DNA of 64,000 nucleotides from an uncultured Nocardioidaceae bacterium (GTDB lineage Bacteria; Actinomycetota; Actinomycetes; Propionibacteriales; Nocardioidaceae). Every line of letters begins with the position of its first letter. Position 1 is the first letter of the stretch. The stretch is from positions 47,255 to 111,254 of the forward strand of contig CAZNCE010000001.1 of NCBI GenBank assembly GCA_964571285.1, in the 5' to 3' direction. The notes below the pieces were generated by a model. That model was not told where the DNA came from, searched no databases, and saw only the letters and a program-made list of their open reading frames with translations. Both the position numbers and the translations under genes were made by a program. This document shows, piece after piece, positions 5,465 to 49,438 of this stretch.

Positions 5465-6859
5465 GTGAACCTCTCCCCGCAAGACCTCGTCGAGCACGCA
5501 CTGTCTACGACCGAGTCCGACGGCTGCGTGGTGATCTTCGACGCCTCGACCAGCGCCAACCTGCGCTGGGCCAACAACACGCTGACCACCAACGGCGTGC
5601 TGGAGCAGGCCAGGGTGACCGTTGTCGCCACCCGCGCCGGGGCCGACGGCACCGCCTCCGGGGTGATCTCGCGCAGCGCAGCCGATCGCGACCAGGTCAC
5701 CGAGATCGTGCGGGCGGCCGACGCGGCGGCCGCGGCGGCCGGTCCCGCCGAGGACGCGCAGCCGTTGGCCGCCGGGCCCGATGGCGACAACGGGTCCGAC
5801 TGGGCGGAGGCGCCCGGTGAGACGTCGATCTCGGTGTTCGACGGGTTCGCACCGGCCCTCGGGGACGCCTTCGGCCGCGCCCGGGACGCCCGGCAGGTGC
5901 TCTACGGCTATGTCGAGCACGACGTCACCACCACCTACCTGGGTACGTCCACCGGGGTCCGCCGCCGGCACGTGCAGCCCTCCGGGCATGTGGGGATCAC
6001 CGGCAAGGACGCCGACCTGACCCGGTCCGCGTGGGTCGGCCAGGCCACCAGGGACTTCTCCGACGTGGACGTTGCCGTTCTGTCCGGGGAGCTGGACCGG
6101 CGGCTGCGCTGGGCGGAGCGCAGCGTGGAACTCCCCGCCGGGCGGTACGAGACGGTGCTGCCGCCGACCGCGGTGGCCGACCTGATGATCTACCAGTACT
6201 GGGTGTCGGGCGGCCGCGACGCACACGAGGGGCAGACCGTGTTCAGCCGGCCCGGCGGCGGCACGCGCGTCGGCGAGTCGCTGTCGGAGCAGCCGGTGCG
6301 GCTGTTCTCCGACCCGGCGCTGCCCGGCCTGGAGTGCTGTCCGTTCGTGGTCGCCCACGCGTCCGGCTCCGAGCAGAGCGTGTTCGACAACGGGCTGCCG
6401 ATCGAGCCCACCGACTGGGTGCGCGACGGTTCGCTCAGGGCGCTGCTGCAGTCGCGGCACTCCGCGCAGCTCACCGGGCTGCCGTTCACTCCCGCGGTGG
6501 ACAACCTGGCGCTCTCCGTCGATGGCAGCACGTCCGGCCTGGACGACCTGGTCGCCGGCACCGACCGCGGCCTGCTGCTCACCTGCCTGTGGTACATCCG
6601 GGAGGTCGACCCGCAGACGCTGCTGCTGACCGGGCTCACCCGCGACGGCGTCTACCTGGTCGAGAACGGCGAGGTCACCGGCGCGGTGAACAACTTCCGG
6701 TTCAACGAGAGCCCGGTCGACCTGCTGCGCCGGTTCACCGAGGCCGGCGCCACGGTGCCCGCGTTCTCCCGGGAGTGGGGCGACTACTTCCCGCGGACCG
6801 CGATGCCACCGCTGCGGATCCCCGACTTCAACATGTCCAGCGTCAGCCGGGCCCGGTGA
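5465..6859 (+). CDS. pmbA: PmbA/TldE-family protein (TldD partner)
   Basis: Track ORF 5096..6859, trimmed to GTG 5465 (VNLSPQDLVEHAL) preceded by GAAGGGA. PmbA-like segments ANLRWANNTLTTNG and GLTRDGVYLVENGEV. Lacks the HExxH motif, as expected for the partner subunit. Confidence 0.8.
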   Translation: MNLSPQDLVEHALSTTESDGCVVIFDASTSANLRWANNTLTTNGVLEQARVTVVATRAGADGTASGVISRSAADRDQVTEIVRAADAAAAAAGPAEDAQPLAAGPDGDNGSDWAEAPGETSISVFDGFAPALGDAFGRARDARQVLYGYVEHDVTTTYLGTSTGVRRRHVQPSGHVGITGKDADLTRSAWVGQATRDFSDVDVAVLSGELDRRLRWAERSVELPAGRYETVLPPTAVADLMIYQYWVSGGRDAHEGQTVFSRPGGGTRVGESLSEQPVRLFSDPALPGLECCPFVVAHASGSEQSVFDNGLPIEPTDWVRDGSLRALLQSRHSAQLTGLPFTPAVDNLALSVDGSTSGLDDLVAGTDRGLLLTCLWYIREVDPQTLLLTGLTRDGVYLVENGEVTGAVNNFRFNESPVDLLRRFTEAGATVPAFSREWGDYFPRTAMPPLRIPDFNMSSVSRAR

Positions 6860-6966
6860 GCGCGACCGCCCGTACCCGCTGCGAGTGAGCGACCCAATGA
6901 CCGCCCCTGACCGACCAGTGACGGATCAGAGTGACCGAACCGAGTGACCGAGGAAAGGTGACCCGA
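6856..6966 (+). repeat. Array of about 8 short TGAC(C)G-type repeats spaced 10-14 bp in the pmbA-AKR intergenic region
   Basis: Read directly: GTGAGCG 6856, GTGAGCGACC 6885, ATGACCGCC 6897, CTGACCGACC 6907, GTGACGGA 6918, GTGACCGAACC 6931, GTGACCGAGG 6944, GTGACCCGA 6958, then the ATGAC start of the next gene at 6966. Confidence 0.6.
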
Positions 6967-7811
6967 TGACACCCGAGCAAGTCCCCACCGTGACCCTGAA
7001 CAACGGCGTGCAGCTGCCCCAGGTGGGCTTCGGCGTCTTCCAGGTGCCCGAGGACGAGACGCAGCGCGTCGTCGAGCAGGCCCTCGAGGCGGGCTACCGG
7101 CACATCGACACCGCGGCCGCCTACTACACCGAGCGCGGTGTCGGCGCCGCGATCCGGGCCAGCGGGCTGGCCCGCGAGGAGGTGTTCGTCACCACCAAGC
7201 TGCGCAACGGCGACCAGGGGTACGACACCGCGTTGCGCGCCTTCGACGACAGCCGCCGCGCCCTCGGGCTGGACGTGGTGGACCTCTACCTGGTGCACTG
7301 GCCGGTGCCGAGCAAGGACCGCTATGTCGAGACCTGGCAGGCGTTCGAGAAGTTGTACGCCGACGGGGCGGTCCGGGCGATCGGCGTCTCGAACTTCCTC
7401 CCCGAGCACCTGCAGCGGCTGACCGCGGAGACCGCCACCGCCCCGGTGGTCAACCAGATCGAGCTGCACCCGACCTTCCAGCAGCCGGCCACCCAGCAGG
7501 CCACCCGGTCGGCCGGGAGCGTGGTCGAGGCGTACTCCCCGCTGGGCCGGGGTGCCGACCTGGACGCACGACCGGTTCGTGCCGCGGCCGAGGCGCACGA
7601 TCGCAGCCCCGGCCAGGTGGTGCTGCGCTGGCACCTGCAGCACGGCAACGTGATCATCCCGAAGTCGGCGACGCCGCAGCGGATCCGCGACAACATCGCG
7701 TTGTTCGACTTCGAGCTGACCGCGGACGAGATGGCGGCGATCGACGCGCTGGATTCCGACGAGCGGTTGGGGTTCGACCCGGCCGAGGCGGCGTTCTCGC
7801 AGTACCCGTGA
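6966..7811 (+). CDS. Aldo/keto reductase (2,5-diketo-D-gluconate reductase-like)
   Basis: GYRHIDTAAAY, TTKL and DLYLVHWP motifs (AKR catalytic Asp/Tyr/Lys/His). 281 aa. Confidence 0.9.
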   Translation: MTPEQVPTVTLNNGVQLPQVGFGVFQVPEDETQRVVEQALEAGYRHIDTAAAYYTERGVGAAIRASGLAREEVFVTTKLRNGDQGYDTALRAFDDSRRALGLDVVDLYLVHWPVPSKDRYVETWQAFEKLYADGAVRAIGVSNFLPEHLQRLTAETATAPVVNQIELHPTFQQPATQQATRSAGSVVEAYSPLGRGADLDARPVRAAAEAHDRSPGQVVLRWHLQHGNVIIPKSATPQRIRDNIALFDFELTADEMAAIDALDSDERLGFDPAEAAFSQYP

Positions 7812-7827
7812 CTGCTTGGCAGCCCGC

Positions 7828-9183
7828 TCAGGACGCCGGCGGTCCGCCGGGTATCGGCGCCTGCGGGTCGTACGGCGTGCGGGTGTAGATGAACGTCGCA
7901 ACCTCCAGATGGGAGGCCCCGCCGTCCGGGCGCCGATGCACGGTCAGCGTCTCGCCGGTGTGGTAGCCGGACAGGCCCAGCCAGCGGTCGGTGTCCAGTC
8001 GCCGAAACCGGAACGCGCGCCCACCGCGGTCGGCGGCCAGCCGCAGTTCGCCGTCCTGCACGCTCATCGTGAACGGCGCCTGGCCCCAGTACCACGGGCC
8101 CAGCAGGTCGCGGATGCCCGGCTCGAGCTCCGTGGTGGGCCGCCATTCCGGAGGCAGCGGCGGTTCGTGGTGCAGCACGGCCTGCACCAGCCGGCGAGGC
8201 AGGGTCTCGACGTCCACGCCGTACGCCGCGTTGGTGAGCAGCACCGCGCCGACCCCGCTGTCCCGGTCCACGAACATGCCGCAGACGAACCCCGGCATCG
8301 ATCCGGTGTGACCGACCAGCATCGGCTCGGAGCCGGTGATGCGCAGCCCGAGGCCGTAGCCACCGGTCAGGCCCTCCTCGGGGTACGCCGACTGCGGCGT
8401 GGCCATCTCGTCGACCGTGCCGGGGTCGAGGACCGTGCCGGGGCTGGCCAGCTCGGCCATCCAGCGGACCAGGTCGCCGACGGTGCTCCACAGCTGCCCC
8501 GCCGGCGCCATCGCGGCGGTGTCGTTCAGCGGCTCCTCGGTCAGCGTTCCGGCCAGCGCGTCGACCGCCAGCCCCATCGCGTGCGGTGCCTGCGGCAGCA
8601 CGGTGGTCCGGGACATGCCGAGCGGCTCGGTGATGCGCTCGCGCAGGGCGCCGGCCCAGGTGGTGCCCAGCAGCCGCCCGGCGAGCCGGCCGAGCACCGC
8701 GAAGCCCAGGTTGGAGTAGTGGTGCTGCCGGCCCGGCGGCAGCACGGCGGGCGCGTCGCGGTGGGCTGCCACCAGCTCGTCCCAGTCACGACCCGGGCTG
8801 CGCTCCCACCACGAGCCGGCGGGCTCGGCCGGCATCCCGGACGAGTGCGACAGCAGCGACCGCACCGTCCGGTCGGCATACGGCGCCTCCGGCAGGTAGT
8901 CGCCGACCGGCGCTCCCAGGTCGAGCAGCCCCCGGTCGCGCAGCTGCAGCACCAGCGCGGCGGTCATGGTCTTGGTGACCGAGCCGATGCGGTACTGCGT
9001 GTCCACGCTCGGCGGCACCCAGCCGGCGGGCTCGGCCCGGGCGACCGCGCCGCGTACCCCCGACCAGGCGCACTGGCCGTCGCGCAGCACCGCGGCGGCC
9101 AGCGAGGGGATGTGCTGGTCGGCCTGGGCCCGGGCCACCACCGCCGTCAGCTGCCGGGCGGTGGACTCCAGCACCCCTCCCAT
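7828..9183 (-). CDS. Serine hydrolase, beta-lactamase class C / PBP-like family
   Basis: SVTK (SxxK) and YSN motifs. The track ORF extends to 9402 and would overlap gcvP, so the start is trimmed to ATG 9183 (MGGVLEST); GTG 9204 is an alternative. Confidence 0.8.
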   Translation of the reverse strand: MGGVLESTARQLTAVVARAQADQHIPSLAAAVLRDGQCAWSGVRGAVARAEPAGWVPPSVDTQYRIGSVTKTMTAALVLQLRDRGLLDLGAPVGDYLPEAPYADRTVRSLLSHSSGMPAEPAGSWWERSPGRDWDELVAAHRDAPAVLPPGRQHHYSNLGFAVLGRLAGRLLGTTWAGALRERITEPLGMSRTTVLPQAPHAMGLAVDALAGTLTEEPLNDTAAMAPAGQLWSTVGDLVRWMAELASPGTVLDPGTVDEMATPQSAYPEEGLTGGYGLGLRITGSEPMLVGHTGSMPGFVCGMFVDRDSGVGAVLLTNAAYGVDVETLPRRLVQAVLHHEPPLPPEWRPTTELEPGIRDLLGPWYWGQAPFTMSVQDGELRLAADRGGRAFRFRRLDTDRWLGLSGYHTGETLTVHRRPDGGASHLEVATFIYTRTPYDPQAPIPGGPPAS

Positions 9184-9214
9184 CGGCGCACCCTGCTCGC
9201 TCACCGGCTCGGCT

Positions 9215-12124
<2,910 letters not shown>

Positions 12125-42426: not shown

Positions 42427-43923
42427 ATGCAACTGAGTGAACAGGGCCGGGGTGTCCTGCTGGGCGGGGCTTCGGTCCTGCTCGTGGGAGGCTCGGTCGC
42501 CGCCGCGAACCTGATCAGCGACTTTCCCGTGCTCGGTGGGCAGGCAGTGAGGTTCCTGACCGCGACGGTGCTGCTGGCGGGTTGGGCCCGCCTGCGCAAG
42601 ATCCCCCTCCGGCGCCCCACGGCTCGGGAGTGCGGCTGGCTCAGCGCGCTCGCGGTCGTCGGGATGGCGGGGTACGGCGTGGTGCTGGTGCATGCCACCT
42701 CGGAGACCGATCCCGGGAACGTCGGCATCGCGATCGGCGCGACGCCGCTGGTGATCGTCCTGGTCAGGTCCTGGGCGCGTCGCACCCCGCCGTCGCGCCG
42801 GCTCATCGGCGGGGCCGGCTTGATCGCCGTGGCGACCGCGGCGACCTTCACCCTGTCGGATGGCGCCGGCGGCGCCTGGAACGCCAGCGGCCTCGCCTGG
42901 TCCGTGGCCGCGCTCGGCACCGCCGCCTGCATCACGTTGCTGGCCGCGCCCGTCGTCTCGAGCCTGGGTGCGCTGCCGGTGACGATCTACGCCTGCGCGG
43001 CTGCAGCCGTGGTGCTGTTCGCCGCCGCGCTGGGCGAGGCGTTGGTCCAGGGCAGCCCCGCCCTCCGAATGCCCACCGGGGTGGAGGCGCTGGCCCTGGT
43101 CTACCTGGCGGTCGGCGTCACCACCATGGTTTTCCTGCTCTGGTACGGGGCCATGTCGTTGCTGGGGCCGAGCAGGGCCGGGCTGTTCAACGGGGTCGTC
43201 CCCCTCACCAGTCTGGCCGCGGCCGCCCTGACCGGCACCGGCGACCCAACGCCCGCGCACCTGCTCTGTGCCGCTGCCGTGCTCGGCGGAGTCGCGTTGG
43301 GCGTCACCGGAGGGGCCGGCAGCGCGGCGCCGAGTCCCTCCTCACTCCGGGGCGAGCAGGGCGTTGGCGATGGTGCTCGCGACCCACTCCTCGTACTGGT
43401 CGAGGGTGTAGTCGCCCGTCCGGACCAGCAACTCGTAGGTCTCGGGGCTGGCGATCGCCCAGGCGGTGTCGGTCGCCGCGGCCCGGCTCATCCCCTTCCG
43501 CAGGGACTTGGTGGGGATGCGTCGGATCATCTCGGCGAAGGTGTGGTGCCGCAGTTGGTGCAGCGCCTGCCAGTCTGCGGCGATCTCGGCGTCGGAGGCG
43601 GCGGCGTCCCGATACAGTCGCCAACCCAGCGCGGCTCGTTCGGCCAGCCCCCGGTAGAAGGCGGCGAGGTGTTTGACCGTGGTCCGAGCGTCTGCGCCCG
43701 GCCGGTCCAGCGCGTCGGCGATCAGGTGCGGCAGCTCCTCCGCGTACTGCGCGTCCGGGTCGCCCGACAGCGAGGCGTCCATGTGCGCGCGCAGCAGGGC
43801 TCGCTTGCTTCCCCAGGCCAGATACAGCGTCTGCACGGTGACGCCGGCACGATCGGCGATGCGATTGACCGTCGCCGCGTGATAGCCACGCTCGGCGAAC
43901 TCAGCCGTCGCCGCTTGGAGTAG
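42427..43923 (+). CDS. EamA/DMT-family transporter; ORF lacks a stop at the expected ~300-aa end and runs ~580 nt antisense into tetR
   Basis: The first ~300 aa show ten hydrophobic helices typical of DMT. The remainder (after ...VALGVTGGAGSAAPS) is Arg/Gly/Pro-rich and antisense to 43342..44001. Confidence 0.7.
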   Translation: MQLSEQGRGVLLGGASVLLVGGSVAAANLISDFPVLGGQAVRFLTATVLLAGWARLRKIPLRRPTARECGWLSALAVVGMAGYGVVLVHATSETDPGNVGIAIGATPLVIVLVRSWARRTPPSRRLIGGAGLIAVATAATFTLSDGAGGAWNASGLAWSVAALGTAACITLLAAPVVSSLGALPVTIYACAAAAVVLFAAALGEALVQGSPALRMPTGVEALALVYLAVGVTTMVFLLWYGAMSLLGPSRAGLFNGVVPLTSLAAAALTGTGDPTPAHLLCAAAVLGGVALGVTGGAGSAAPSPSSLRGEQGVGDGARDPLLVLVEGVVARPDQQLVGLGAGDRPGGVGRRGPAHPLPQGLGGDASDHLGEGVVPQLVQRLPVCGDLGVGGGGVPIQSPTQRGSFGQPPVEGGEVFDRGPSVCARPVQRVGDQVRQLLRVLRVRVARQRGVHVRAQQGSLASPGQIQRLHGDAGTIGDAIDRRRVIATLGELSRRRLE

Positions 43924-44001
43924 CCGGCGCCGGGTCTCCGCCCGCGACGCCGCACCAGCCTCGCGCTGGCGCGTGGTGTTGCGAGCAGCACGCTTTGCCA
44001 T
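43342..44001 (-). CDS. TetR-family transcriptional regulator
   Basis: HTH GYHAATVNRIADRAGVTVQTLYLAWGSK. Start placed at ATG 44001 (MAKRAARN), with a TACCAT -10-like box ending 6 nt upstream (leaderless arrangement). TTG 44019 is an alternative. Confidence 0.9.
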   Translation of the reverse strand: MAKRAARNTTRQREAGAASRAETRRRLLQAATAEFAERGYHAATVNRIADRAGVTVQTLYLAWGSKRALLRAHMDASLSGDPDAQYAEELPHLIADALDRPGADARTTVKHLAAFYRGLAERAALGWRLYRDAAASDAEIAADWQALHQLRHHTFAEMIRRIPTKSLRKGMSRAAATDTAWAIASPETYELLVRTGDYTLDQYEEWVASTIANALLAPE

Positions 44002-44019
44002 GGACAGATGGTAGCGCAA

Positions 44020-44063
44020 GGATTAGAGTGACGCTAAAGTGTTTTAGAGCGACACTCTAATCC
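44020..44063. promoter_or_regulatory. 44-bp AT-rich palindromic operator candidate in the tetR / cocE-like divergent region
   Basis: GGATTAGAGTGACGCTAAAGTGTTTTAGAGCGACACTCTAATCC. Outer arms GGATTAGAGTG / CACTCTAATCC are perfect, inner arms imperfect. Immediately followed by GGAGG and ATG 44076. Confidence 0.65.
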
Positions 44064-44075
44064 GGAGGCTCAACC

Positions 44076-45815
44076 ATGACCCGCACCCCGTCCGCCCCGG
44101 GTCTGGACCGGCCCTGGCATCGGCCGGGCGCGGTGCGGTACGCGCTCGCACGGCTGCGTGGCATCGCCCGACCGCCGGTCACCGTGTACGAGCCGGCGGC
44201 GGGCACCGTGGTCAGCGAGCTGGATGTGCCGGTGCGGACGCGCGACGACACCGTGCTGCGCGTCAACGTCTACCGGCCGCCCGGTGACGGGCCGTTCCCA
44301 GTGCTGCTGTCGGCACACCCGTACGGCAAGGACAATCTGCCGGCCCGCCGCGGGCGCCGGTCGAGGTTCTCGGTGCAGTACCGGATCATGCGCCAGCCCG
44401 CGCCGGTGTCGTTCTCGAGCCTGACCAGCTGGGAGGCACCCGACCCGGCCTGGTGGACCGGACACGGCTATGCGGTCGTCAACGCCGACCTGCGTGGCTG
44501 CGGCACGTCCGACGGGGTCGGGTCGCTGATGTCCGATGCCGAGGCCGAGGACATCGCAGACCTGGTGGAGTGGGCTGGCCACCAACCCTGGTCGACCGGC
44601 AACGTCGGCATGCTGGGGGTGTCCTACCTGGCGATGTCCCAGTACAAGGTGGCCGGTCTGGCGCCGCCCTCGCTGAAGGCGATCTGTCCCTGGGAGGGGA
44701 TGACAGATCCCTATCGCGACCTGATGCGCCCAGGCGGGCTGTACGAACACGGGTTCACCCGTGTCTGGGCGGCCGGGACCAAGCGGGCCGGCCGGCTGGC
44801 AACCGACATCGGCGAGGAGCAACGGGACCGCCCGCTGCGCGACGAGTGGTGGCAGTCCATCACCCCGGACCTGGACAAGATCACCGTGCCGATGCTGGTC
44901 TGCGCCAGCTTCTCCGACAACGCCCTGCACTCCCGGGGCTCGTTCCGCGCGTTCGAAAACGTCGGGTCAAGCCACCGGTTCGCGTACACCCACCGGGGCG
45001 GCAAGTGGGCGGTGTTCTACGACGAGCCGGCCCGGCAGACCCAACGGGCCTTCTTCGACCGCTACCTCCGGGAGGCGGCCGCCCCCGCCCTGCCGCGGGT
45101 GCGCCTGGAGGTGCGCGAGTCCGGCGACCGGGTCGTCGAGGTCCGGGACGAGGACGAATGGCCGTTGGCCCGCACCGAGTGGTCCCCGCTGTACCTCTCC
45201 CCCGGCGGCCGGCTCGACGTCGATCCGCCCCGGCTGACCGGCCGGGTGAGCTTCCGGACCAGGCGCCGCGCCGCCGCGTTCACCTACCCGATGCCCGCCG
45301 AGACCGAGCTCACCGGACCCATGTCGCTACGCCTGTGGGTCTCCGTGGACGAGACCGATGACGTGGACCTCGTCGTCGGAGTCGAGAAGTGGCGCGGCAG
45401 GCACTACGTCGGCTTCGAGGGCTCGTACGGCTTCGGTCGCGACCGGGTGACCACGGGCTGGCAGAAGGCCTCGCTGCGCCAGCTCGACGACGATGCGTCG
45501 GCCATCGGCGAGCCCGTCCACACGTACCGGACGCGCCAGCCGCTGGAGCCGGGTGAGATCGTCCCGGTCGACATCGCGCTCGGCCCGTCGGCCACCCTGT
45601 TCCGCGCCGGCGAGTCACTGCGGCTGGTCATCGCCGGTCGGTGGCTGTGGCCGGCCAATCCGCTCACCGGCAACTTCCCGGCGCGCTACACCCACACCCC
45701 CGCCGGCCGGTGCACGCTGCACTGGGGCCCCGACCGGCCGGCCCACTTGCTGCTCCCGCGGATCCCATCACGTCACACCAACACATTGCCTCTACAGGTA
45801 AGGAGAACACCATGA
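44076..45815 (+). CDS. CocE/NonD-family (S15 X-Pro dipeptidyl-peptidase-like) hydrolase
   Basis: VLLSAHPYGK, nucleophile elbow GMLGVSYLAMSQ and a C-terminal beta-sandwich region. 579 aa. Confidence 0.85.
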   Translation: MTRTPSAPGLDRPWHRPGAVRYALARLRGIARPPVTVYEPAAGTVVSELDVPVRTRDDTVLRVNVYRPPGDGPFPVLLSAHPYGKDNLPARRGRRSRFSVQYRIMRQPAPVSFSSLTSWEAPDPAWWTGHGYAVVNADLRGCGTSDGVGSLMSDAEAEDIADLVEWAGHQPWSTGNVGMLGVSYLAMSQYKVAGLAPPSLKAICPWEGMTDPYRDLMRPGGLYEHGFTRVWAAGTKRAGRLATDIGEEQRDRPLRDEWWQSITPDLDKITVPMLVCASFSDNALHSRGSFRAFENVGSSHRFAYTHRGGKWAVFYDEPARQTQRAFFDRYLREAAAPALPRVRLEVRESGDRVVEVRDEDEWPLARTEWSPLYLSPGGRLDVDPPRLTGRVSFRTRRRAAAFTYPMPAETELTGPMSLRLWVSVDETDDVDLVVGVEKWRGRHYVGFEGSYGFGRDRVTTGWQKASLRQLDDDASAIGEPVHTYRTRQPLEPGEIVPVDIALGPSATLFRAGESLRLVIAGRWLWPANPLTGNFPARYTHTPAGRCTLHWGPDRPAHLLLPRIPSRHTNTLPLQVRRTP

Positions 45816-46645
45816 GCCGCACCGACGCGCTGGTCTCAACCGACTGGGCCGAGGACAACCTGAACACCGCGGGCGTCGTCTTCGTCGAAGTGGACGAAGA
45901 CGTGACGGCCTACGGCGACGGCCACATCCCGGGCGCGGTGATGCTGGACTGGAAGCTCGACCTGCAGGACCCCCTCCGCCGCGACTTCGTCGACAAGATC
46001 CAGTTCGAGGGGTTGCTGTCGGACAAGGGGATCGGGAACGCGGACACCGTGGTGCTGTACGGCGGGAACAACAACTGGTTCGCCGCCTACGCCTACTGGT
46101 ACTTCAAGCTGTACGGCCACCAGGACGTGAAACTGCTGGACGGCGGCCGGAAGAAGTGGGAGCTGGAGGGGCGCATCCTCACCGACGAGCCGGTGAAGCG
46201 CGCCACTACGTCGTACCAGGCCGCCGAACAGAACTGCTCCATCCGAGCGTTCCGCGACGAGGTCATCGCTGCGATCGGCGTACACAACCTGGTCGACGTC
46301 CGCTCGCCGGACGAGTTCTCCGGGAAGCTGTTCGCGCCGCCCAACCTGCCGCAGGAGCAGCCCTACGTGGCCGGCCACGTCCCCGGCGCGCTGAACGTGC
46401 CATGGAGCAAGGCCGCCAATGACGACGGCACCTTCAAGTCCGACGAAGAGCTTCGCGAGATCTACGCCGGTGTCGACCAGTCGAAGAACACCATCGCCTA
46501 CTGCCGGATCGGCGAGCGCTCCAGCCACACGTGGTTCGTGCTCAGCGAACTACTGGATCGCGAGAACGTGAAGAACTACGACGGCTCGTGGACCGAGTAC
46601 GGCTCGCTGGTGGCGGTGCCGGTCGCGCGCGGTAGCGACTCCTGA
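45812..46645 (+). CDS. sseA: Thiosulfate/3-mercaptopyruvate sulfurtransferase (two-domain rhodanese)
   Basis: ATGA overlap with the upstream stop. SD AAGGAG. Active-site loop YCRIGERSSH. Confidence 0.9.
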   Translation: MSRTDALVSTDWAEDNLNTAGVVFVEVDEDVTAYGDGHIPGAVMLDWKLDLQDPLRRDFVDKIQFEGLLSDKGIGNADTVVLYGGNNNWFAAYAYWYFKLYGHQDVKLLDGGRKKWELEGRILTDEPVKRATTSYQAAEQNCSIRAFRDEVIAAIGVHNLVDVRSPDEFSGKLFAPPNLPQEQPYVAGHVPGALNVPWSKAANDDGTFKSDEELREIYAGVDQSKNTIAYCRIGERSSHTWFVLSELLDRENVKNYDGSWTEYGSLVAVPVARGSDS

Positions 46646-46657
46646 GAGGGGTACGGC

Positions 46658-47713
46658 GTGTACTTCAAACAGTTCCTGCACGACGACCACGGGTGCGCGT
46701 CGTACTTCATCGCGTCGAGGGAGTCCCGGGAGGCGGCCGTCGTCGACCCGCAGATCGACGTCGACCGCTACCTCGGGCTGGCCGCGGAGCGCGGATATCG
46801 GATCACCACCGTGATCGACACGCACCTGCACGCCGACCACGTGTCGGGCAACCGGGCGTTGGCGCGCGCCACCGGGGCCGACCTCTACCTCCATGCATCG
46901 GCGGATGTCGCCTTCTCGTTCGCGGCGCTGCAGCACGGCACCGTGCTCTCGATCGGCCAGCTCCAGCTGCGAGTGGTGCACACGCCCGGGCACCGACCGG
47001 AGGCGATCTCGCTGCTGCTCGTCAATCCACCACGTAGCCCGGAGCCGTCCATGGTGCTGTCGGGAGACACCCTGTTCGTCGGTGACGTCGGCCGACCGGA
47101 CTTCGGCGGAGCTGAGGGCGCCGAGCAGCAGTGGGCGAGCGTGCAGCGCCTGCTGAGCCTGCCGGACTGGGTGGAGGTCTTCCCGGCGCATTTCGAGGGC
47201 AGCTGCGGCAAGGCGATGTGCGGCCGGCCGAGTTCCACGATCGGGTTCGAGCGCCGATTCAACCCGGTGCTCCGGCTTAGTCGTGAGGAGTTTCTGAGCT
47301 ACGCCGGGCAACCTCCGGCCCGGCCGCTGAACATGACCGCGATCATGGCGACCAACCAGGGGCGCGCCGACCTGGCGTACGCCCAGGATCTCGGGGCCAC
47401 GACGCCTCCGCGACTGGACATCGCGCAGGCGAAGCACCGCATCGCGGCAAACGCGATGGTCCTGGACGTGCGGGAGCCCGACGAGTACACCGCCGGGCAC
47501 CTGCCCGCGGCACGGAACCTGCCGCAGGCGGACATGTTGACCCGGATCGACGAGATTCCACGGGACCAGAGCCTCATCGTGGTCTGCGAGACCGGTGTGA
47601 GATCACGAGGTGCGGCCCGGTTCCTGACCGGCCAGGGCTATCCGCAGGTCGCCGACCTGATCGGCGGGACGGCGGCCTGGCGACGGGCCGGCGAACCCCT
47701 GGAATACGCGTAA
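46658..47713 (+). CDS. MBL-fold persulfide-dioxygenase-like domain fused to a C-terminal rhodanese domain
   Basis: THLHADHVSG (HxHxDH) and ETHE1-like PGHRPE. C-terminal rhodanese with active-site VVCETGVRS. Confidence 0.85.
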   Translation: MYFKQFLHDDHGCASYFIASRESREAAVVDPQIDVDRYLGLAAERGYRITTVIDTHLHADHVSGNRALARATGADLYLHASADVAFSFAALQHGTVLSIGQLQLRVVHTPGHRPEAISLLLVNPPRSPEPSMVLSGDTLFVGDVGRPDFGGAEGAEQQWASVQRLLSLPDWVEVFPAHFEGSCGKAMCGRPSSTIGFERRFNPVLRLSREEFLSYAGQPPARPLNMTAIMATNQGRADLAYAQDLGATTPPRLDIAQAKHRIAANAMVLDVREPDEYTAGHLPAARNLPQADMLTRIDEIPRDQSLIVVCETGVRSRGAARFLTGQGYPQVADLIGGTAAWRRAGEPLEYA

Positions 47714-47717
47714 CGCC

Positions 47718-48416
47718 ATGGGTCCCACCCAGTCTGGTCCCGCGGCCCGATCCGACACCTTCGCCAAAGGCCGAGTCGAGTTGTTCTCGGACGCGGTGAT
47801 CGCGGTCGCCATCACCCTGCTCGTCCTCGACCTGCGGGTGCCGGAACCGGGCGGCGCCGAGACGCTCGGCCACCTGCTTGCCGAGCAGTGGCCCAGCTAC
47901 GTGGCCTATGTCATCTCCTTCCTGGCGATCGGCATCATCTGGATCAACCACCACGCCATGCTGCGGCGCGTGGTCGGCGTCGACCATTCCCTCCTGGTCC
48001 TGAACCTGCTGCTCCTGTTGTGCATCGTGGTGTTGCCGTTCAGCACTTCGCTGCTCGCGACCTACCTGGACGCGCCCAGCGGCGGACGCCTTGCCGCGGT
48101 CGTCTACGCGGGGTCGTTCCTGGTCACCTCGTCGGTGTTCGTCGCCATGCAACATCACCTGCTGATCCGGCGCCCACAGCTGCTGCGCGACCCTCACACC
48201 AGCGCCGAGACCCGGGCGATCCTGATCCGCGCCGCGGTGGCGCCGCCGGCGTACCTGCTGGCCGCGGCGGCAGGTCTCCTGGCGCCGTACGTCACACTCA
48301 CGGTCTGCGTCGCGATGGGCCTGTTCTACCTGCTGGCACCTCCGTCGGCCCCACGTGCCAGGACCGGGTCGGCCGCCCGCGAAACCGCCTCGTCCGCGGA
48401 CCTGGGCGGTCCTTGA
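47718..48416 (+). CDS. TMEM175-family (DUF1211) putative potassium channel
   Basis: Signature GRVELFSDAVIAVAITLLVLDL. Six hydrophobic helices. Starts 4 nt after the upstream stop. Confidence 0.8.
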   Translation: MGPTQSGPAARSDTFAKGRVELFSDAVIAVAITLLVLDLRVPEPGGAETLGHLLAEQWPSYVAYVISFLAIGIIWINHHAMLRRVVGVDHSLLVLNLLLLLCIVVLPFSTSLLATYLDAPSGGRLAAVVYAGSFLVTSSVFVAMQHHLLIRRPQLLRDPHTSAETRAILIRAAVAPPAYLLAAAAGLLAPYVTLTVCVAMGLFYLLAPPSAPRARTGSAARETASSADLGGP

Positions 48417-48469
48417 CGTTTGCCGTAGCTTGTCGCGGCTCGCGTCGGCTCCCGCCCTAGTCTGCCTTC

Positions 48470-49171
48470 ATGACAGTGCGACCGGCGACGGTTTCTGACC
48501 TCGACTGGATGGTCTCCGTACTCAGTGAACGTCGCGGGTCTCTGGTCGACTTTGCTCGGGTGGTCTGGCGACCGGCACCGGACGCCTCCGAGCGCCATCG
48601 TGAGTTCCTTGAACACCTGCTCCGGGAGGGCAGTGCGACTGCCTACCGGACCGACACTTCCCTCCTCGTCGCGCCGCGACGCGGCGACGGCTGGCTCATC
48701 GACGATCTCCACGTCTCCGAAGGGCACTGGGAGAACGATGGTCGCGACATGTGGAACGCCCTGGCCTCCGAGAGCAGCGGAGACGCGGTCCGGTTCGTGT
48801 GCCCGACCTACGAGGCGAACCGTCGAAGTTTCGCCCATCGGGTGGGGCTGGATCTAGCCGAATCGTGGTGGCTGATGGAGCTCGAGACCTCTGGCGGTGA
48901 ACCAGGGGCGAAGGTGGCCTTGCCCGGTGGGGAAGGAATCACTGTTGCTGCACCGCCCGTGTACGGCCCACCTGGCCCAATGTTGTTCATTCCGGCCCTG
49001 TCTGATCCCCGAGCAGCGGTTTACGCGTCGCCACAGAGCGCCAGACAGCACGGTTGTGCCGGGGTCGTGGTCAACCAGACAGCACGCGATACCCAGTTGG
49101 CCGAGATCCTTTCTCAGTCAGGGTTCCGCAGGCACTGCGACTACTTCACCGGCATCCTGGCGACCATCTGA
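48470..49171 (+). CDS. GNAT-like acetyltransferase (weak), compositionally atypical
   Basis: MTVRPATVSDLDWMVSVL..., FVCPTYEANRRSFAHRVGL and a GFRRHCDYF-type C-terminus. By eye about a third of codons end in A/T, unlike neighbouring genes. Confidence 0.5.
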   Translation: MTVRPATVSDLDWMVSVLSERRGSLVDFARVVWRPAPDASERHREFLEHLLREGSATAYRTDTSLLVAPRRGDGWLIDDLHVSEGHWENDGRDMWNALASESSGDAVRFVCPTYEANRRSFAHRVGLDLAESWWLMELETSGGEPGAKVALPGGEGITVAAPPVYGPPGPMLFIPALSDPRAAVYASPQSARQHGCAGVVVNQTARDTQLAEILSQSGFRRHCDYFTGILATI

Positions 49172-49320
49172 TCGCGGCATGTCCGGGCGTGACGCGGCGA
49201 GACGCGACGAACTGGGACGAACTCGTCCCGCGCCTCCAGCCGGAGGGGACTCGTCCGCCGCGGAGAGGGCACACGGCGTCGACCTGGGGGAACGGTCGGC
49301 AGGAAGGCCCTGTCGGTCAT

Positions 49321-49357
49321 GCAAAACGCCGCCCACCTGCGTGGACAGGTCGGCGGC
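49321..49357 (-). terminator. Intrinsic terminator downstream of tRNA-Pro
   Basis: Minus-strand hairpin GCCGCCGACCTG-TCCACG-CAGGTGGGCGGC (one mismatch) followed by GTTTTGC. Confidence 0.6.
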
Positions 49358-49364
49358 GGTCCGG

Positions 49365-49438
<74 letters not shown>

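What the first reader, a model, noticed from the sequence alone, without database searches (positions are those of the whole stretch)
43342..48416. TetR-controlled operon coupling a CocE/NonD hydrolase to rhodanese, persulfide-dioxygenase-rhodanese fusion and a TMEM175-type channel
Four plus-strand genes are packed with a 4-nt overlap, a 12-nt gap and a 4-nt gap, and are divergent from a TetR gene across a palindromic operator. SseA-type rhodanese plus an MBL persulfide dioxygenase fused to a rhodanese is a recognisable sulfide/persulfide detoxification pair, similar in logic to the Blh or CstB systems. Those systems, as I remember them, are governed by CstR, BigR or SqrR-type sensors and do not include an S15-family hydrolase or a potassium-channel homologue. 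The ATGA coupling of the hydrolase to the rhodanese suggests a shared substrate, for example release of a thiol or persulfide-bearing compound from an ester or amide.
Basis: partly seen in the sequence, partly recalled or inferred. Interest (0 to 1): 0.6.

Follow-up and report, generated by a model that had tools for sequence, protein, structure and literature searches.

The report
TetR hydrolase operon carrying persulfide genes
A widespread repressor-plus-esterase gene pair of actinobacteria picked up, once in one lineage, a set of sulfide/persulfide-oxidation genes and a TMEM175-type channel gene; this window holds a partly eroded copy, which is an unusual wiring of known parts and not a new kind of system.

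Summary
A Cys-free TetR gene (43342-44001, -) faces four tightly packed + strand genes. These are a CocE/NonD serine hydrolase, a CysA2-type tandem rhodanese, a short CstB-like persulfide dioxygenase-rhodanese fusion and a prokaryotic TMEM175 homologue.

Comparative work gives a more specific picture.
- The TetR/hydrolase pair, with two 15-bp palindromic operators exactly 21 bp apart, occurs across Actinomycetes. It usually has no sulfur genes.
- Within one hydrolase clade (SH-aLRT 99), the downstream genes are drawn from rhodanese, PDO-Rhd, type III SQR and TMEM175, in varying subsets.
- One locus keeps fragments of rhodanese, PDO-Rhd and SQR in that order. This points to a longer ancestral operon that has since eroded. 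The window is the SQR-less version.
- Elsewhere, relatives of each of the three components surveyed (PDO-Rhd, SQR, TMEM175) never sit beside the others, so the assembly arose once.
- Either half survives without the other.

The adjacency of hydrolase and sulfur genes is therefore real and conserved in this clade. A shared substrate is not supported, and the regulator cannot sense persulfide through cysteine chemistry.

Verdict: a new variant of known sulfide-oxidation operons, of moderate interest. The scan had noted the operator and the TMEM175 gene on this same window. The tool for finding sequencing runs was closed, so there is no expression evidence.

The parts
43342..44001 (-). TetR-family repressor gene, 219 aa from the ATG at 44001. 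It has no cysteine and is probably leaderless, with a TACCAT -10-like box at 44013-44008.
   Evidence: Pfam TetR_N scores 60.8 bits. Cys count is 0. Orthologues at 46-86% identity are divergent from the hydrolase gene in 19 loci.
44001..44029 (+). Promoter-like site for the hydrolase operon. The -35 TGGACA (44001-44006) overlaps the tetR start codon, followed by a 17-nt spacer and the -10 TAGAGT (44024-44029), which lies inside operator site 1.
   Evidence: This is the only sigma-70-like site in 43200-49400. TGGACA and TAGAGT keep the same register in most orthologous loci.
44020..44063 (.). Operator. Two 15-bp imperfect palindromes of the form TWGAGTGNCACTCWA lie at 44024-44038 and 44045-44059, 21 bp apart, nested in a 44-bp inverted repeat.
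   Evidence: Arms of 16 nt are 94% complementary. Two sites exactly 21 bp apart occur in all 19 divergent TetR/CocE loci. These are the only good matches in the genome; the four other 2-mismatch sites are fewer than the reversed-pattern control gives.
44076..45815 (+). CocE/NonD-family serine hydrolase, 579 aa. The putative triad is Ser183 (GVSY), Asp281 (SFSD) and His306 (YTHRG).
   Evidence: TIGR00976 scores 367 bits against a cut-off of 66. The closest solved structure is S. aureus 3IB3 at E 2.5e-101, and cocaine esterase matches at 4e-27.
45812..46645 (+). Tandem-domain rhodanese, 277 aa, of the CysA2-type thiosulfate sulfurtransferase kind. The active-site loop is C231-RIGERS.
   Evidence: Matches 3AAX and 3HWI at E 1e-135, has two Pfam Rhodanese stretches, and overlaps the hydrolase stop as ATGA.
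46658..47713 (+). Persulfide dioxygenase-rhodanese fusion, 351 aa (a short CstB). It carries HxHxDH 56-61, H112, D137, GRPDF 145-149, Cys183 in the PDO domain and Cys310 (CETGVRS) in the rhodanese domain.
   Evidence: Matches 3TP9 at 9e-64, S. aureus CstB 3R2U at 3.8e-48, BpPRF 5VE3 at 2e-34 and ETHE1 4CHL at 1e-18.
47718..48416 (+). Prokaryotic TMEM175/DUF1211 homologue, 232 aa, with the RVELFSD signature at residues 19-25.
   Evidence: Pfam TMEM175 scores 105 bits. It matches CmTMEM175 5VRE at E 3.2e-34 and human TMEM175 at 2e-23. Orthologues at 66-73% identity end the same operon in G009, L115, L116 and L148.

Best explanation
This is a composite operon with two parts.

The core is an old two-gene actinobacterial module. 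A ligand-binding, Cys-free TetR repressor is transcribed divergently, probably leaderless, from a CocE/NonD serine hydrolase. Two TetR dimers are inferred to bind two 15-bp palindromes 21 bp apart. These cover the -10 hexamer and the likely transcription start of the hydrolase promoter.

In one lineage a sulfide/persulfide-oxidation cassette and a TMEM175 gene came to lie downstream of the hydrolase gene. The cassette comprised a CysA2-type thiosulfate sulfurtransferase, a short CstB-like PDO-Rhd and a type III SQR. The module then appeared in different genomic contexts and lost different genes in different genomes. The window carries the version without SQR.

Here all four + strand genes are most likely transcribed from the single TetR-controlled promoter. 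Induction would be by an unknown small molecule related to the hydrolase, not by cysteine persulfidation of the regulator.

The PDO-Rhd is inferred to oxidise low-molecular-weight persulfides to sulfite or thiosulfate, with the rhodanese shuttling sulfane sulfur. The hydrolase and the sulfur enzymes are co-regulated but probably do not share a substrate.

Shown: the gene identities, motifs, junctions, operator conservation and comparative distribution. Inferred: co-transcription, repression, the enzyme activities, and the lack of biochemical coupling.
For: - Junctions of -4, 12 and 4 nt are.
- There is one promoter-like site, and it overlaps the operator.
- The two-site operator with 21-bp spacing is present in 19 of 19 divergent TetR/CocE loci, spanning 59-100% hydrolase identity. 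This includes loci without sulfur genes.
- The TetR has 0 Cys, as do 19 of its 23 orthologues examined.
- Every locus with Rhd2, PDO-Rhd, SQR or TMEM175 downstream falls in one clade of 11 rows, with SH-aLRT 99.
- Downstream content varies: Rhd2-PDO-TMEM (window), Rhd2-SQR-TMEM (G009), SQR (L114), SQR-TMEM (L115), TMEM alone (L116, L148), Rhd2-PDO (L137, L140) and Rhd2-SQR (L145).
- L136 keeps fragments of Rhd2, PDO-Rhd and SQR in that order.
- Flanking genes differ among the loci whose flanks could be read.
- The halves are independent: L136 and the P0002 contig have the hydrolase alone, while L140 and L141 have sulfur genes beside a broken or deleted hydrolase.
Against: - Translational coupling (ATGA) of the hydrolase to the next gene recurs in the window, L114 and L141.
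- About 10 clade members retain sulfur or TMEM175 genes, which could reflect selection for a joint function.
- No other regulator for the sulfur genes is present in the locus.
- The promoter scan uses a sigma-70 consensus and may miss internal actinobacterial promoters.
- An intact five-gene ancestral operon was not found. It is inferred from the L136 remnants.
Confidence: 0.5

Rival explanations
1. Shared pathway. The hydrolase cleaves a sulfur-bearing ester, amide or thioester. The released sulfide, thiol or persulfide is then processed by SQR, PDO-Rhd and the rhodanese. The TetR senses the organosulfur substrate, and TMEM175 handles an ion or product flux.
For: - The hydrolase stop overlaps the next gene's start as ATGA in the window, L114 and L141.
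- Sulfur genes are retained directly behind the hydrolase in at least 8 loci whose flanks, where readable, differ.
- There is no thiol-based sulfur sensor in the locus, and the TetR is Cys-free, so a small-molecule inducer is needed.
Against: - The association arose once.
- About 90 orthologous hydrolases, many with the same TetR and operator, have no sulfur genes.
- Rhd2 and PDO-Rhd stay intact where the hydrolase is split (L140) or deleted (L141). The hydrolase stays intact where the sulfur genes have decayed (L136) or are absent (P0002 contig).
- No independent CocE-sulfur gene adjacency appears among 80 PDO-Rhd loci or 30 SQR loci.
Confidence: 0.25
2. The hydrolase and TMEM175 are the original functional pair, and the sulfur genes are later inserts between them. 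One possibility is an esterase that inactivates an ester-type ionophore or antibiotic, paired with a K+ channel that restores ion balance. The CocE/NonD family includes NonD of the nonactin cluster (from my own knowledge of the family).
For: - L116 and L148, which sit in the unresolved base of the clade, carry hydrolase-TMEM175 with gaps of 1 and 65 nt and no sulfur genes.
- TMEM175 is always the last gene when it is present.
Against: - The base of the clade is an unresolved polytomy.
- The L136 remnants show loss rather than gain of sulfur genes.
- L114 and L140 lack TMEM175.
- The ionophore idea rests on memory of the family name only and was not tested.
Confidence: 0.12
3. In this operon TMEM175 fills the slot that TauE/SafE sulfite exporters fill in known PDO operons. 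It would then serve export of sulfite or thiosulfate, or charge compensation for that export, and not act as a K+ leak channel.
For: - In S. coelicolor the PDO-Rhd gene is co-transcribed with a TauE-like gene (PMC7533328).
- Here the membrane protein behind PDO-Rhd or SQR is TMEM175 in the window, G009 and L115.
- No TauE gene is present in the operon.
Against: - Solved TMEM175 proteins are cation channels, and the window protein keeps the RxxxFSD signature and is close to CmTMEM175.
- TMEM175 also follows the hydrolase directly with no sulfur genes in L116 and L148.
- 28 other TMEM175 genes in related genomes are not near sulfur genes.
Confidence: 0.08

Closest known systems
S. aureus cst operon (CstR-CstA-CstB-SQR-TauE) and the S. 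coelicolor ScCsoR-ScPDO-SctauE-Scrhod circuit (PMC7533328)
   Same: - A PDO fused to a catalytic rhodanese domain. The CstB structure 3R2U matches at E 3.8e-48, and both CstB cysteines have counterparts, Cys183 and Cys310.
- A separate rhodanese and a membrane protein in the same transcription unit.
- SQR is present in sister loci.
   Different: - The regulator is a Cys-free TetR, not a thiol-based CsoR-like CstR.
- The first gene is a CocE/NonD hydrolase.
- The membrane protein is TMEM175, not TauE.
- The PDO-Rhd lacks CstB's middle rhodanese-like domain.
- The window's genome has no detectable SQR (the assembly is 85% complete).
BpPRF, the PDO-rhodanese fusion of Paraburkholderia phytofirmans (PDB 5VE3-5VE5)
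   Same: The same two-domain PDO-Rhd architecture at about 350 aa. It aligns end to end, residues 2-348.
   Different: The match is weaker (E 2e-34) than to the CstB-type proteins 3TP9 and 3R2U. The gene neighbourhoods are unrelated (Paraburkholderia loci L065, L073 and L074).
M. tuberculosis CysA2/CysA3 thiosulfate sulfurtransferase (PDB 3HWI; M. thermoresistibile 3AAX)
   Same: Both are 277 aa, match at E 1e-135 and carry the CRIGERS active-site loop.
   Different: Here it is an extra copy inside a TetR/hydrolase operon. The genome has another tandem rhodanese at 54% identity elsewhere.
CocE/NonD hydrolases: S. aureus SACOL2612 (PDB 3IB3/3III, function unknown) and Rhodococcus cocaine esterase
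   Same: The S15 alpha/beta-hydrolase domain plus PepX_C domain, with the Ser-Asp-His candidates conserved.
   Different: No substrate is known for this orthologous group. No paper was found on SACOL2612, nor one linking the family to persulfide dioxygenase.
CmTMEM175 (PDB 5VRE), a prokaryotic TMEM175 K+ channel
   Same: A single six-helix repeat with the RxxxFSD signature. It aligns over residues 16-206 at E 3e-34.
   Different: By my counting along the alignment, the residue aligned with the Ile23 constriction is Val30 in the window protein. The physiological role of bacterial TMEM175 is unknown, and here it is fixed as the last gene of a hydrolase/sulfur operon.

Membership tests
CstR/BigR/SqrR-type sulfide-responsive operon (cst-like) | A repressor that senses persulfide through reactive cysteines | tested here: not met
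   The only regulator in the locus is a TetR with zero cysteines. The same holds for 19 of its 23 orthologues examined.
CstR/BigR/SqrR-type sulfide-responsive operon (cst-like) | A persulfide dioxygenase with the mononuclear-iron His/His/Asp site, fused or adjacent to a rhodanese | tested here: met
   The protein carries HxHxDH 56-61, H112, D137, GRPDF, and Cys310 in CETGVRS. It matches 3TP9, CstB and ETHE1.
CstR/BigR/SqrR-type sulfide-responsive operon (cst-like) | A sulfide:quinone oxidoreductase in the cluster or the genome | tested here: not met
   No SQR3 homologue was found in G000 at E<=1e-5, though the assembly is 85% complete. A type III SQR-like gene occupies the same operon in G009, L114, L115 and L145.
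CstR/BigR/SqrR-type sulfide-responsive operon (cst-like) | A TauE/SafE-type sulfite exporter | tested here: not met
   The only membrane protein in the operon is TMEM175.
TetR-family repressor with a divergent target operon | An N-terminal TetR HTH, divergent transcription, and a palindromic operator overlapping the target promoter | tested here: met
   TetR_N scores 60.8 bits. Two palindromes 21 bp apart are conserved in 19 loci. The -10 hexamer lies inside site 1.
TetR-family repressor with a divergent target operon | DNA binding that is relieved by a small-molecule ligand | not testable with these tools
   The C-terminal domain matches no Pfam TetR_C family and no solved ligand complex; only the HTH aligns.
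CocE/NonD hydrolase (TIGR00976) | A model score above the cut-off, and a Ser-Asp-His triad | tested here: met
   The score is 367 bits against a cut-off of 66. Ser183 and Asp281 align with CocE Ser117 and Asp259. His306 is conserved with 3IB3, and this His assignment is by alignment only.
TMEM175 / DUF1211 channel | A Pfam score above the cut-off, the RxxxFSD motif in TM1, and a six-helix repeat | tested here: met
   The score is 105 bits against a cut-off of 25. RVELFSD lies at residues 19-25. The protein aligns over residues 16-206 with CmTMEM175. Ion selectivity cannot be tested here.
3-mercaptopyruvate sulfurtransferase (SseA, E. coli type) | An NCBIfam equivalog score above the cut-off, and a CG[ST]GVT active-site loop | tested here: not met
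   NF008557 scores 110 bits against a cut-off of 250. The loop is CRIGERS, the thiosulfate sulfurtransferase type.

The most novel reading that the evidence does not exclude
The operon is an inducible catabolic or detoxification pathway for an unidentified organosulfur ester, amide or thioester.
- The Cys-free TetR binds that compound.
- The CocE/NonD hydrolase cleaves it and liberates sulfide or a persulfide.
- SQR, PDO-Rhd and the rhodanese oxidise the sulfur.
- The TMEM175 homologue handles the resulting ion or product flux.

If so, this would be the first physiological role proposed for a bacterial TMEM175 and the first substrate class for this hydrolase group.
Probability: 0.2. Interest if true: 0.7.

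Novelty: new variant of a known kind. Interest (0 to 1): 0.4.

Why it matters
Known bacterial sulfide and persulfide oxidation operons are switched on by cysteine-based sensors such as CstR, BigR, SqrR and FisR. Here the same enzymes sit under a Cys-free TetR behind an esterase-family gene. In this lineage their expression must therefore follow a different, unknown signal.

The locus also gives two uncharacterised but widespread protein groups a defined and testable genetic context. These are the actinobacterial TetR-linked CocE/NonD hydrolases, which include orthologues in Mycobacterium marinum and M. kansasii, and the prokaryotic TMEM175 channels, whose cellular role is unknown.

The differently eroded versions of the operon also record how an operon is assembled once, moves between contexts and then decays.

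Tried and rejected
1. PDO-Rhd as the anchor. None of 80 loci from species-representative genomes has the hydrolase, the TetR or TMEM175 nearby; two hold only a distant (27%) rhodanese match several kb away. The nearest non-cluster relatives are Chloroflexota MAGs at 55-74% identity. The PDO-Rhd is therefore not the conserved core.

2. The window's own family, order and class. The hydrolase orthologue is rare: 2 of 81 genomes, 3 of 401 and 15 of 401, each count including the window's own genome. Vertical synteny therefore cannot explain the cluster.

3. A general SQR-TMEM175 or TMEM175-sulfur link. It was rejected: 30 SQR orthologues and 28 other TMEM175 genes have none of the other genes within 1.5 kb.

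4. A wider TetR regulon. The genome has no other good operator site.

5. Ligand inference for the TetR from solved structures. Only the HTH aligns.

6. Literature. No paper pairs DUF1211 with sulfide, pairs CocE/NonD with persulfide dioxygenase, or mentions SACOL2612.

8. An intact five-gene operon (hydrolase-Rhd2-PDO-Rhd-SQR-TMEM175). It was not found.

9. Mobile-element signs. No integrase or transposase lies nearby. The neighbours are a LysR/EamA pair, an unassigned 233-aa ORF, tRNA-Pro, a GNAT gene and Der GTPase.

Full report
**1. What is in the window**

- tetR: 43342-44001 on the - strand, 219 aa from the ATG.
- CocE/NonD hydrolase: 44076-45815.
- Tandem rhodanese: 45812-46645.
- Metallo-beta-lactamase-fold/rhodanese fusion: 46658-47713.
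- TMEM175 homologue: 47718-48416.

The junctions are an ATGA overlap preceded by AAGGAG, a 12-nt gap containing GAGGGG, and a 4-nt gap. A 53-nt gap follows before an unassigned 233-aa ORF. That ORF has no Pfam match.

Family assignments are strong.
- TetR_N scores 60.8 bits.
- TIGR00976 CocE_NonD scores 367 bits against a cut-off of 66.
- The tandem rhodanese has two Rhodanese stretches.
- The fusion protein has Lactamase_B plus Rhodanese.
- TMEM175 scores 105 bits against a cut-off of 25.

The context is ordinary. A LysR/EamA pair lies upstream. Downstream lie tRNA-Pro(GGG) at 49363-49438, a GNAT gene and Der GTPase. There are no mobility genes.

**2. The individual proteins**

*Rhodanese.* It matches the mycobacterial CysA2-type thiosulfate sulfurtransferases 3AAX and 3HWI at E 1e-135 and has the CRIGERS loop. 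It is below cut-off for the E. coli-type 3-mercaptopyruvate sulfurtransferase model. It is therefore CysA2-type, not SseA-type.

*Fusion protein.* It is closest to the CstB-type proteins: 3TP9 at 9e-64 and S. aureus CstB 3R2U at 3.8e-48. Next come BpPRF at 2e-34 and ETHE1 at 1e-18.
- It has HxHxDH (56-61), H112, D137 and the PDO-typical GRPDF.
- It has counterparts of both functional CstB cysteines: Cys183 in GSCGK and Cys310 in the rhodanese loop.
- It lacks CstB's middle rhodanese-like domain.

*Hydrolase.* It is nearest to the uncharacterised S. aureus protein 3IB3 (E 2.5e-101). It keeps the Ser and Asp that align with cocaine esterase Ser117 and Asp259, plus a His conserved with 3IB3.

*TMEM175 homologue.* It aligns over residues 16-206 with CmTMEM175 (5VRE, E 3e-34) and carries RVELFSD.

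*TetR.* It has no cysteine at all. Beyond its HTH it resembles no solved TetR.

**3. Promoter and operator**

The 75-nt divergent region holds a 16-nt-arm inverted repeat that is 94% complementary, and within it a 13-nt direct repeat spaced 21 nt apart.

Comparison with orthologous loci resolves this into two 15-bp palindromes of the form TWGAGTGNCACTCWA. In the window they lie at 44024-44038 and 44045-44059. All 19 loci in which tetR and the hydrolase are divergent have two such sites exactly 21 bp apart. These loci span 59% to 100% hydrolase identity and include loci with no sulfur genes.

The only sigma-70-like promoter in 43200-49400 is TGGACA (44001-44006, overlapping the tetR ATG), then 17 nt, then TAGAGT (44024-44029, the first six bases of site 1). 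Bound TetR would therefore occlude the -10 hexamer and the start site. This is an inference.

The genome has no other good match to the operator, so the regulon is local.

**4. Comparative genomics**

The window lies in a 3.86-Mb, 387-contig assembly that is 85% complete.

*The hydrolase is rare near home but widespread in the class.* Counting the window's own genome, it occurs in 2 of 81 genomes of the family sample, 3 of 401 of the order sample and 15 of 401 of the class sample. It nevertheless has many orthologues at 60-83% identity in public data. Their names include Intrasporangium, Humibacillus, Microbacterium, Sciscionella, Mycobacterium marinum, M. kansasii, M. szulgai and Mycolicibacterium.

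*What lies downstream of the hydrolase, within its closest clade:*

| Locus | Downstream genes |
|---|---|
| Window | Rhd2, PDO-Rhd, TMEM175 |
| G009 (same family, different genus) | Rhd2 (84%), type III SQR-like flavoprotein, TMEM175 (67%) |
| L114 (Intrasporangium) | SQR only, with ATGA overlap |
| L115 | SQR, TMEM175 |
| L116 (Microbacterium) and L148 | TMEM175 only |
| L137 and L140 | Rhd2, PDO-Rhd (79-86%) |
| L145 | Rhd2, SQR |
| L141 (Microlunatus MAG) | A 92-residue C-terminal remnant of the hydrolase, then Rhd2 (ATGA overlap) and PDO-Rhd |
| L136 | Intact TetR and hydrolase, then fragments of Rhd2 (residues 69-123), PDO-Rhd (334-350) and SQR (1-136), in that order |
| P0002 contig (82% hydrolase identity) | None of these genes |

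In L140 the hydrolase itself is split into two ORFs.

*The association arose once.* In a maximum-likelihood tree of 40 hydrolases, every locus with any of these downstream genes falls in one clade of 11 rows, with SH-aLRT 99. About 90 orthologues outside it, at 69% identity or less, have none. Their downstream genes are absent or unrelated. Flanking genes differ among the clade loci whose flanks could be read, and the window and G009 share no DNA similarity outside the module.

*The components are not linked elsewhere.*
- 80 PDO-Rhd relatives lack the other genes. This set includes the nearest non-cluster ones in Chloroflexota (55-74%) and the Streptomyces ScPDO type (37-41%).
- 30 SQR orthologues from other Actinomycetes lack them.
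- 28 other TMEM175 genes from related genomes lack them.

*The window's genome.* It has no SQR homologue in the assembled part. It does have a second tandem rhodanese at 54% identity and a second TMEM175 at 39% elsewhere. The operon copies are therefore extra paralogues.

**5. Interpretation**

The TetR, its operator and the hydrolase form an old, self-contained module. The sulfur genes and TMEM175 joined it once. The L136 remnants indicate an ancestor with the order hydrolase, Rhd2, PDO-Rhd, SQR. TMEM175 follows SQR in G009 and L115. The module was then differentially eroded, and the window holds the version without SQR.

SQR, PDO and rhodanese together form the established heterotrophic sulfide-oxidation route. 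Its closest published actinobacterial counterpart is the S. coelicolor ScCsoR-ScPDO-SctauE-Scrhod circuit (PMC7533328).

The unusual feature here is the wiring:
- a Cys-free TetR in place of a thiol-based sensor;
- an esterase-family gene at the head of the operon;
- TMEM175 in the position where a TauE gene is usually found.

*Against a shared substrate.* Each half survives intact without the other: L136 and the P0002 contig on one side, L140 and L141 on the other. The regulator-operator-hydrolase unit also predates the sulfur genes. I therefore judge co-regulation without shared chemistry the more likely reading, at about 0.5.

*For the shared-substrate reading.* The recurring translational coupling and the retention in about ten genomes keep it alive, at about 0.25.

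*Two further variants.* The hydrolase and TMEM175 may be the original pair, or TMEM175 may stand in for a sulfite exporter. Neither is excluded.

**6. Limits**
- The promoter scan uses a generic consensus.
- An intact five-gene operon was not found.
- The base of the clade is unresolved, so whether TMEM175 was gained or lost first cannot be decided.
- Enzyme activities and TetR repression are inferred from homology.
That would fit a module that acquires different downstream genes.

**7. Verdict**

This is a new variant of a known kind of system, of moderate interest.

Noticed in passing
window 46658-47713; loci L031-L036: The nearest relatives of the PDO-Rhd outside the cluster are Chloroflexota MAGs at 55-74% identity. 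That is far closer than the usual actinobacterial CstB/ScPDO-type proteins at 37-41%. It suggests transfer of this gene between phyla.
   Followed up: partly
L143 (ERZ778018 NODE_61) and L139 (ERZ778018 NODE_63): Two long contigs of one metagenome assembly have nearly equal coverage in their names (15.50 and 15.66). One carries TetR/hydrolase-SQR-TMEM175. The other carries a lone PDO-Rhd (76%) between unrelated genes. They probably come from one organism that keeps the PDO-Rhd away from the operon.
   Followed up: no
L140 5353-7079: The hydrolase gene is split into 103-aa and 472-aa ORFs, by a frameshift or an assembly error. The Rhd2 and PDO-Rhd genes downstream are intact.
   Followed up: no
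window 43999-44013 and orthologous loci: The motif CATGGACA is conserved across most TetR/hydrolase loci. It serves both as the tetR start codon (on the - strand) and as the -35 TGGACA of the hydrolase promoter. A TAnnAT -10-like box lies 7-12 nt upstream of the tetR ATG, which suggests a leaderless tetR mRNA.
   Followed up: partly
window 42427-43923: The EamA/DMT transporter ORF has its first in-frame stop only at 43923, so it runs antisense through most of tetR. The Pfam EamA match ends well before that.
   Followed up: no
window 48470-49171: A 233-aa ORF lies directly after the operon and next to tRNA-Pro(GGG) at 49363-49438. It has no Pfam or NCBIfam match and is not conserved after TMEM175 in G009, L115 or L116, the loci where the sequence downstream of TMEM175 could be read.
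   Followed up: partly
L117 (Mycobacterium marinum contig) 6272-9487: The M. marinum orthologue (65%) keeps the divergent TetR and the two-site operator. It is followed by an unassigned gene, called at 239 aa on the contig, next to a ctpV-like P-type ATPase/DUF1490 pair.
   Followed up: no
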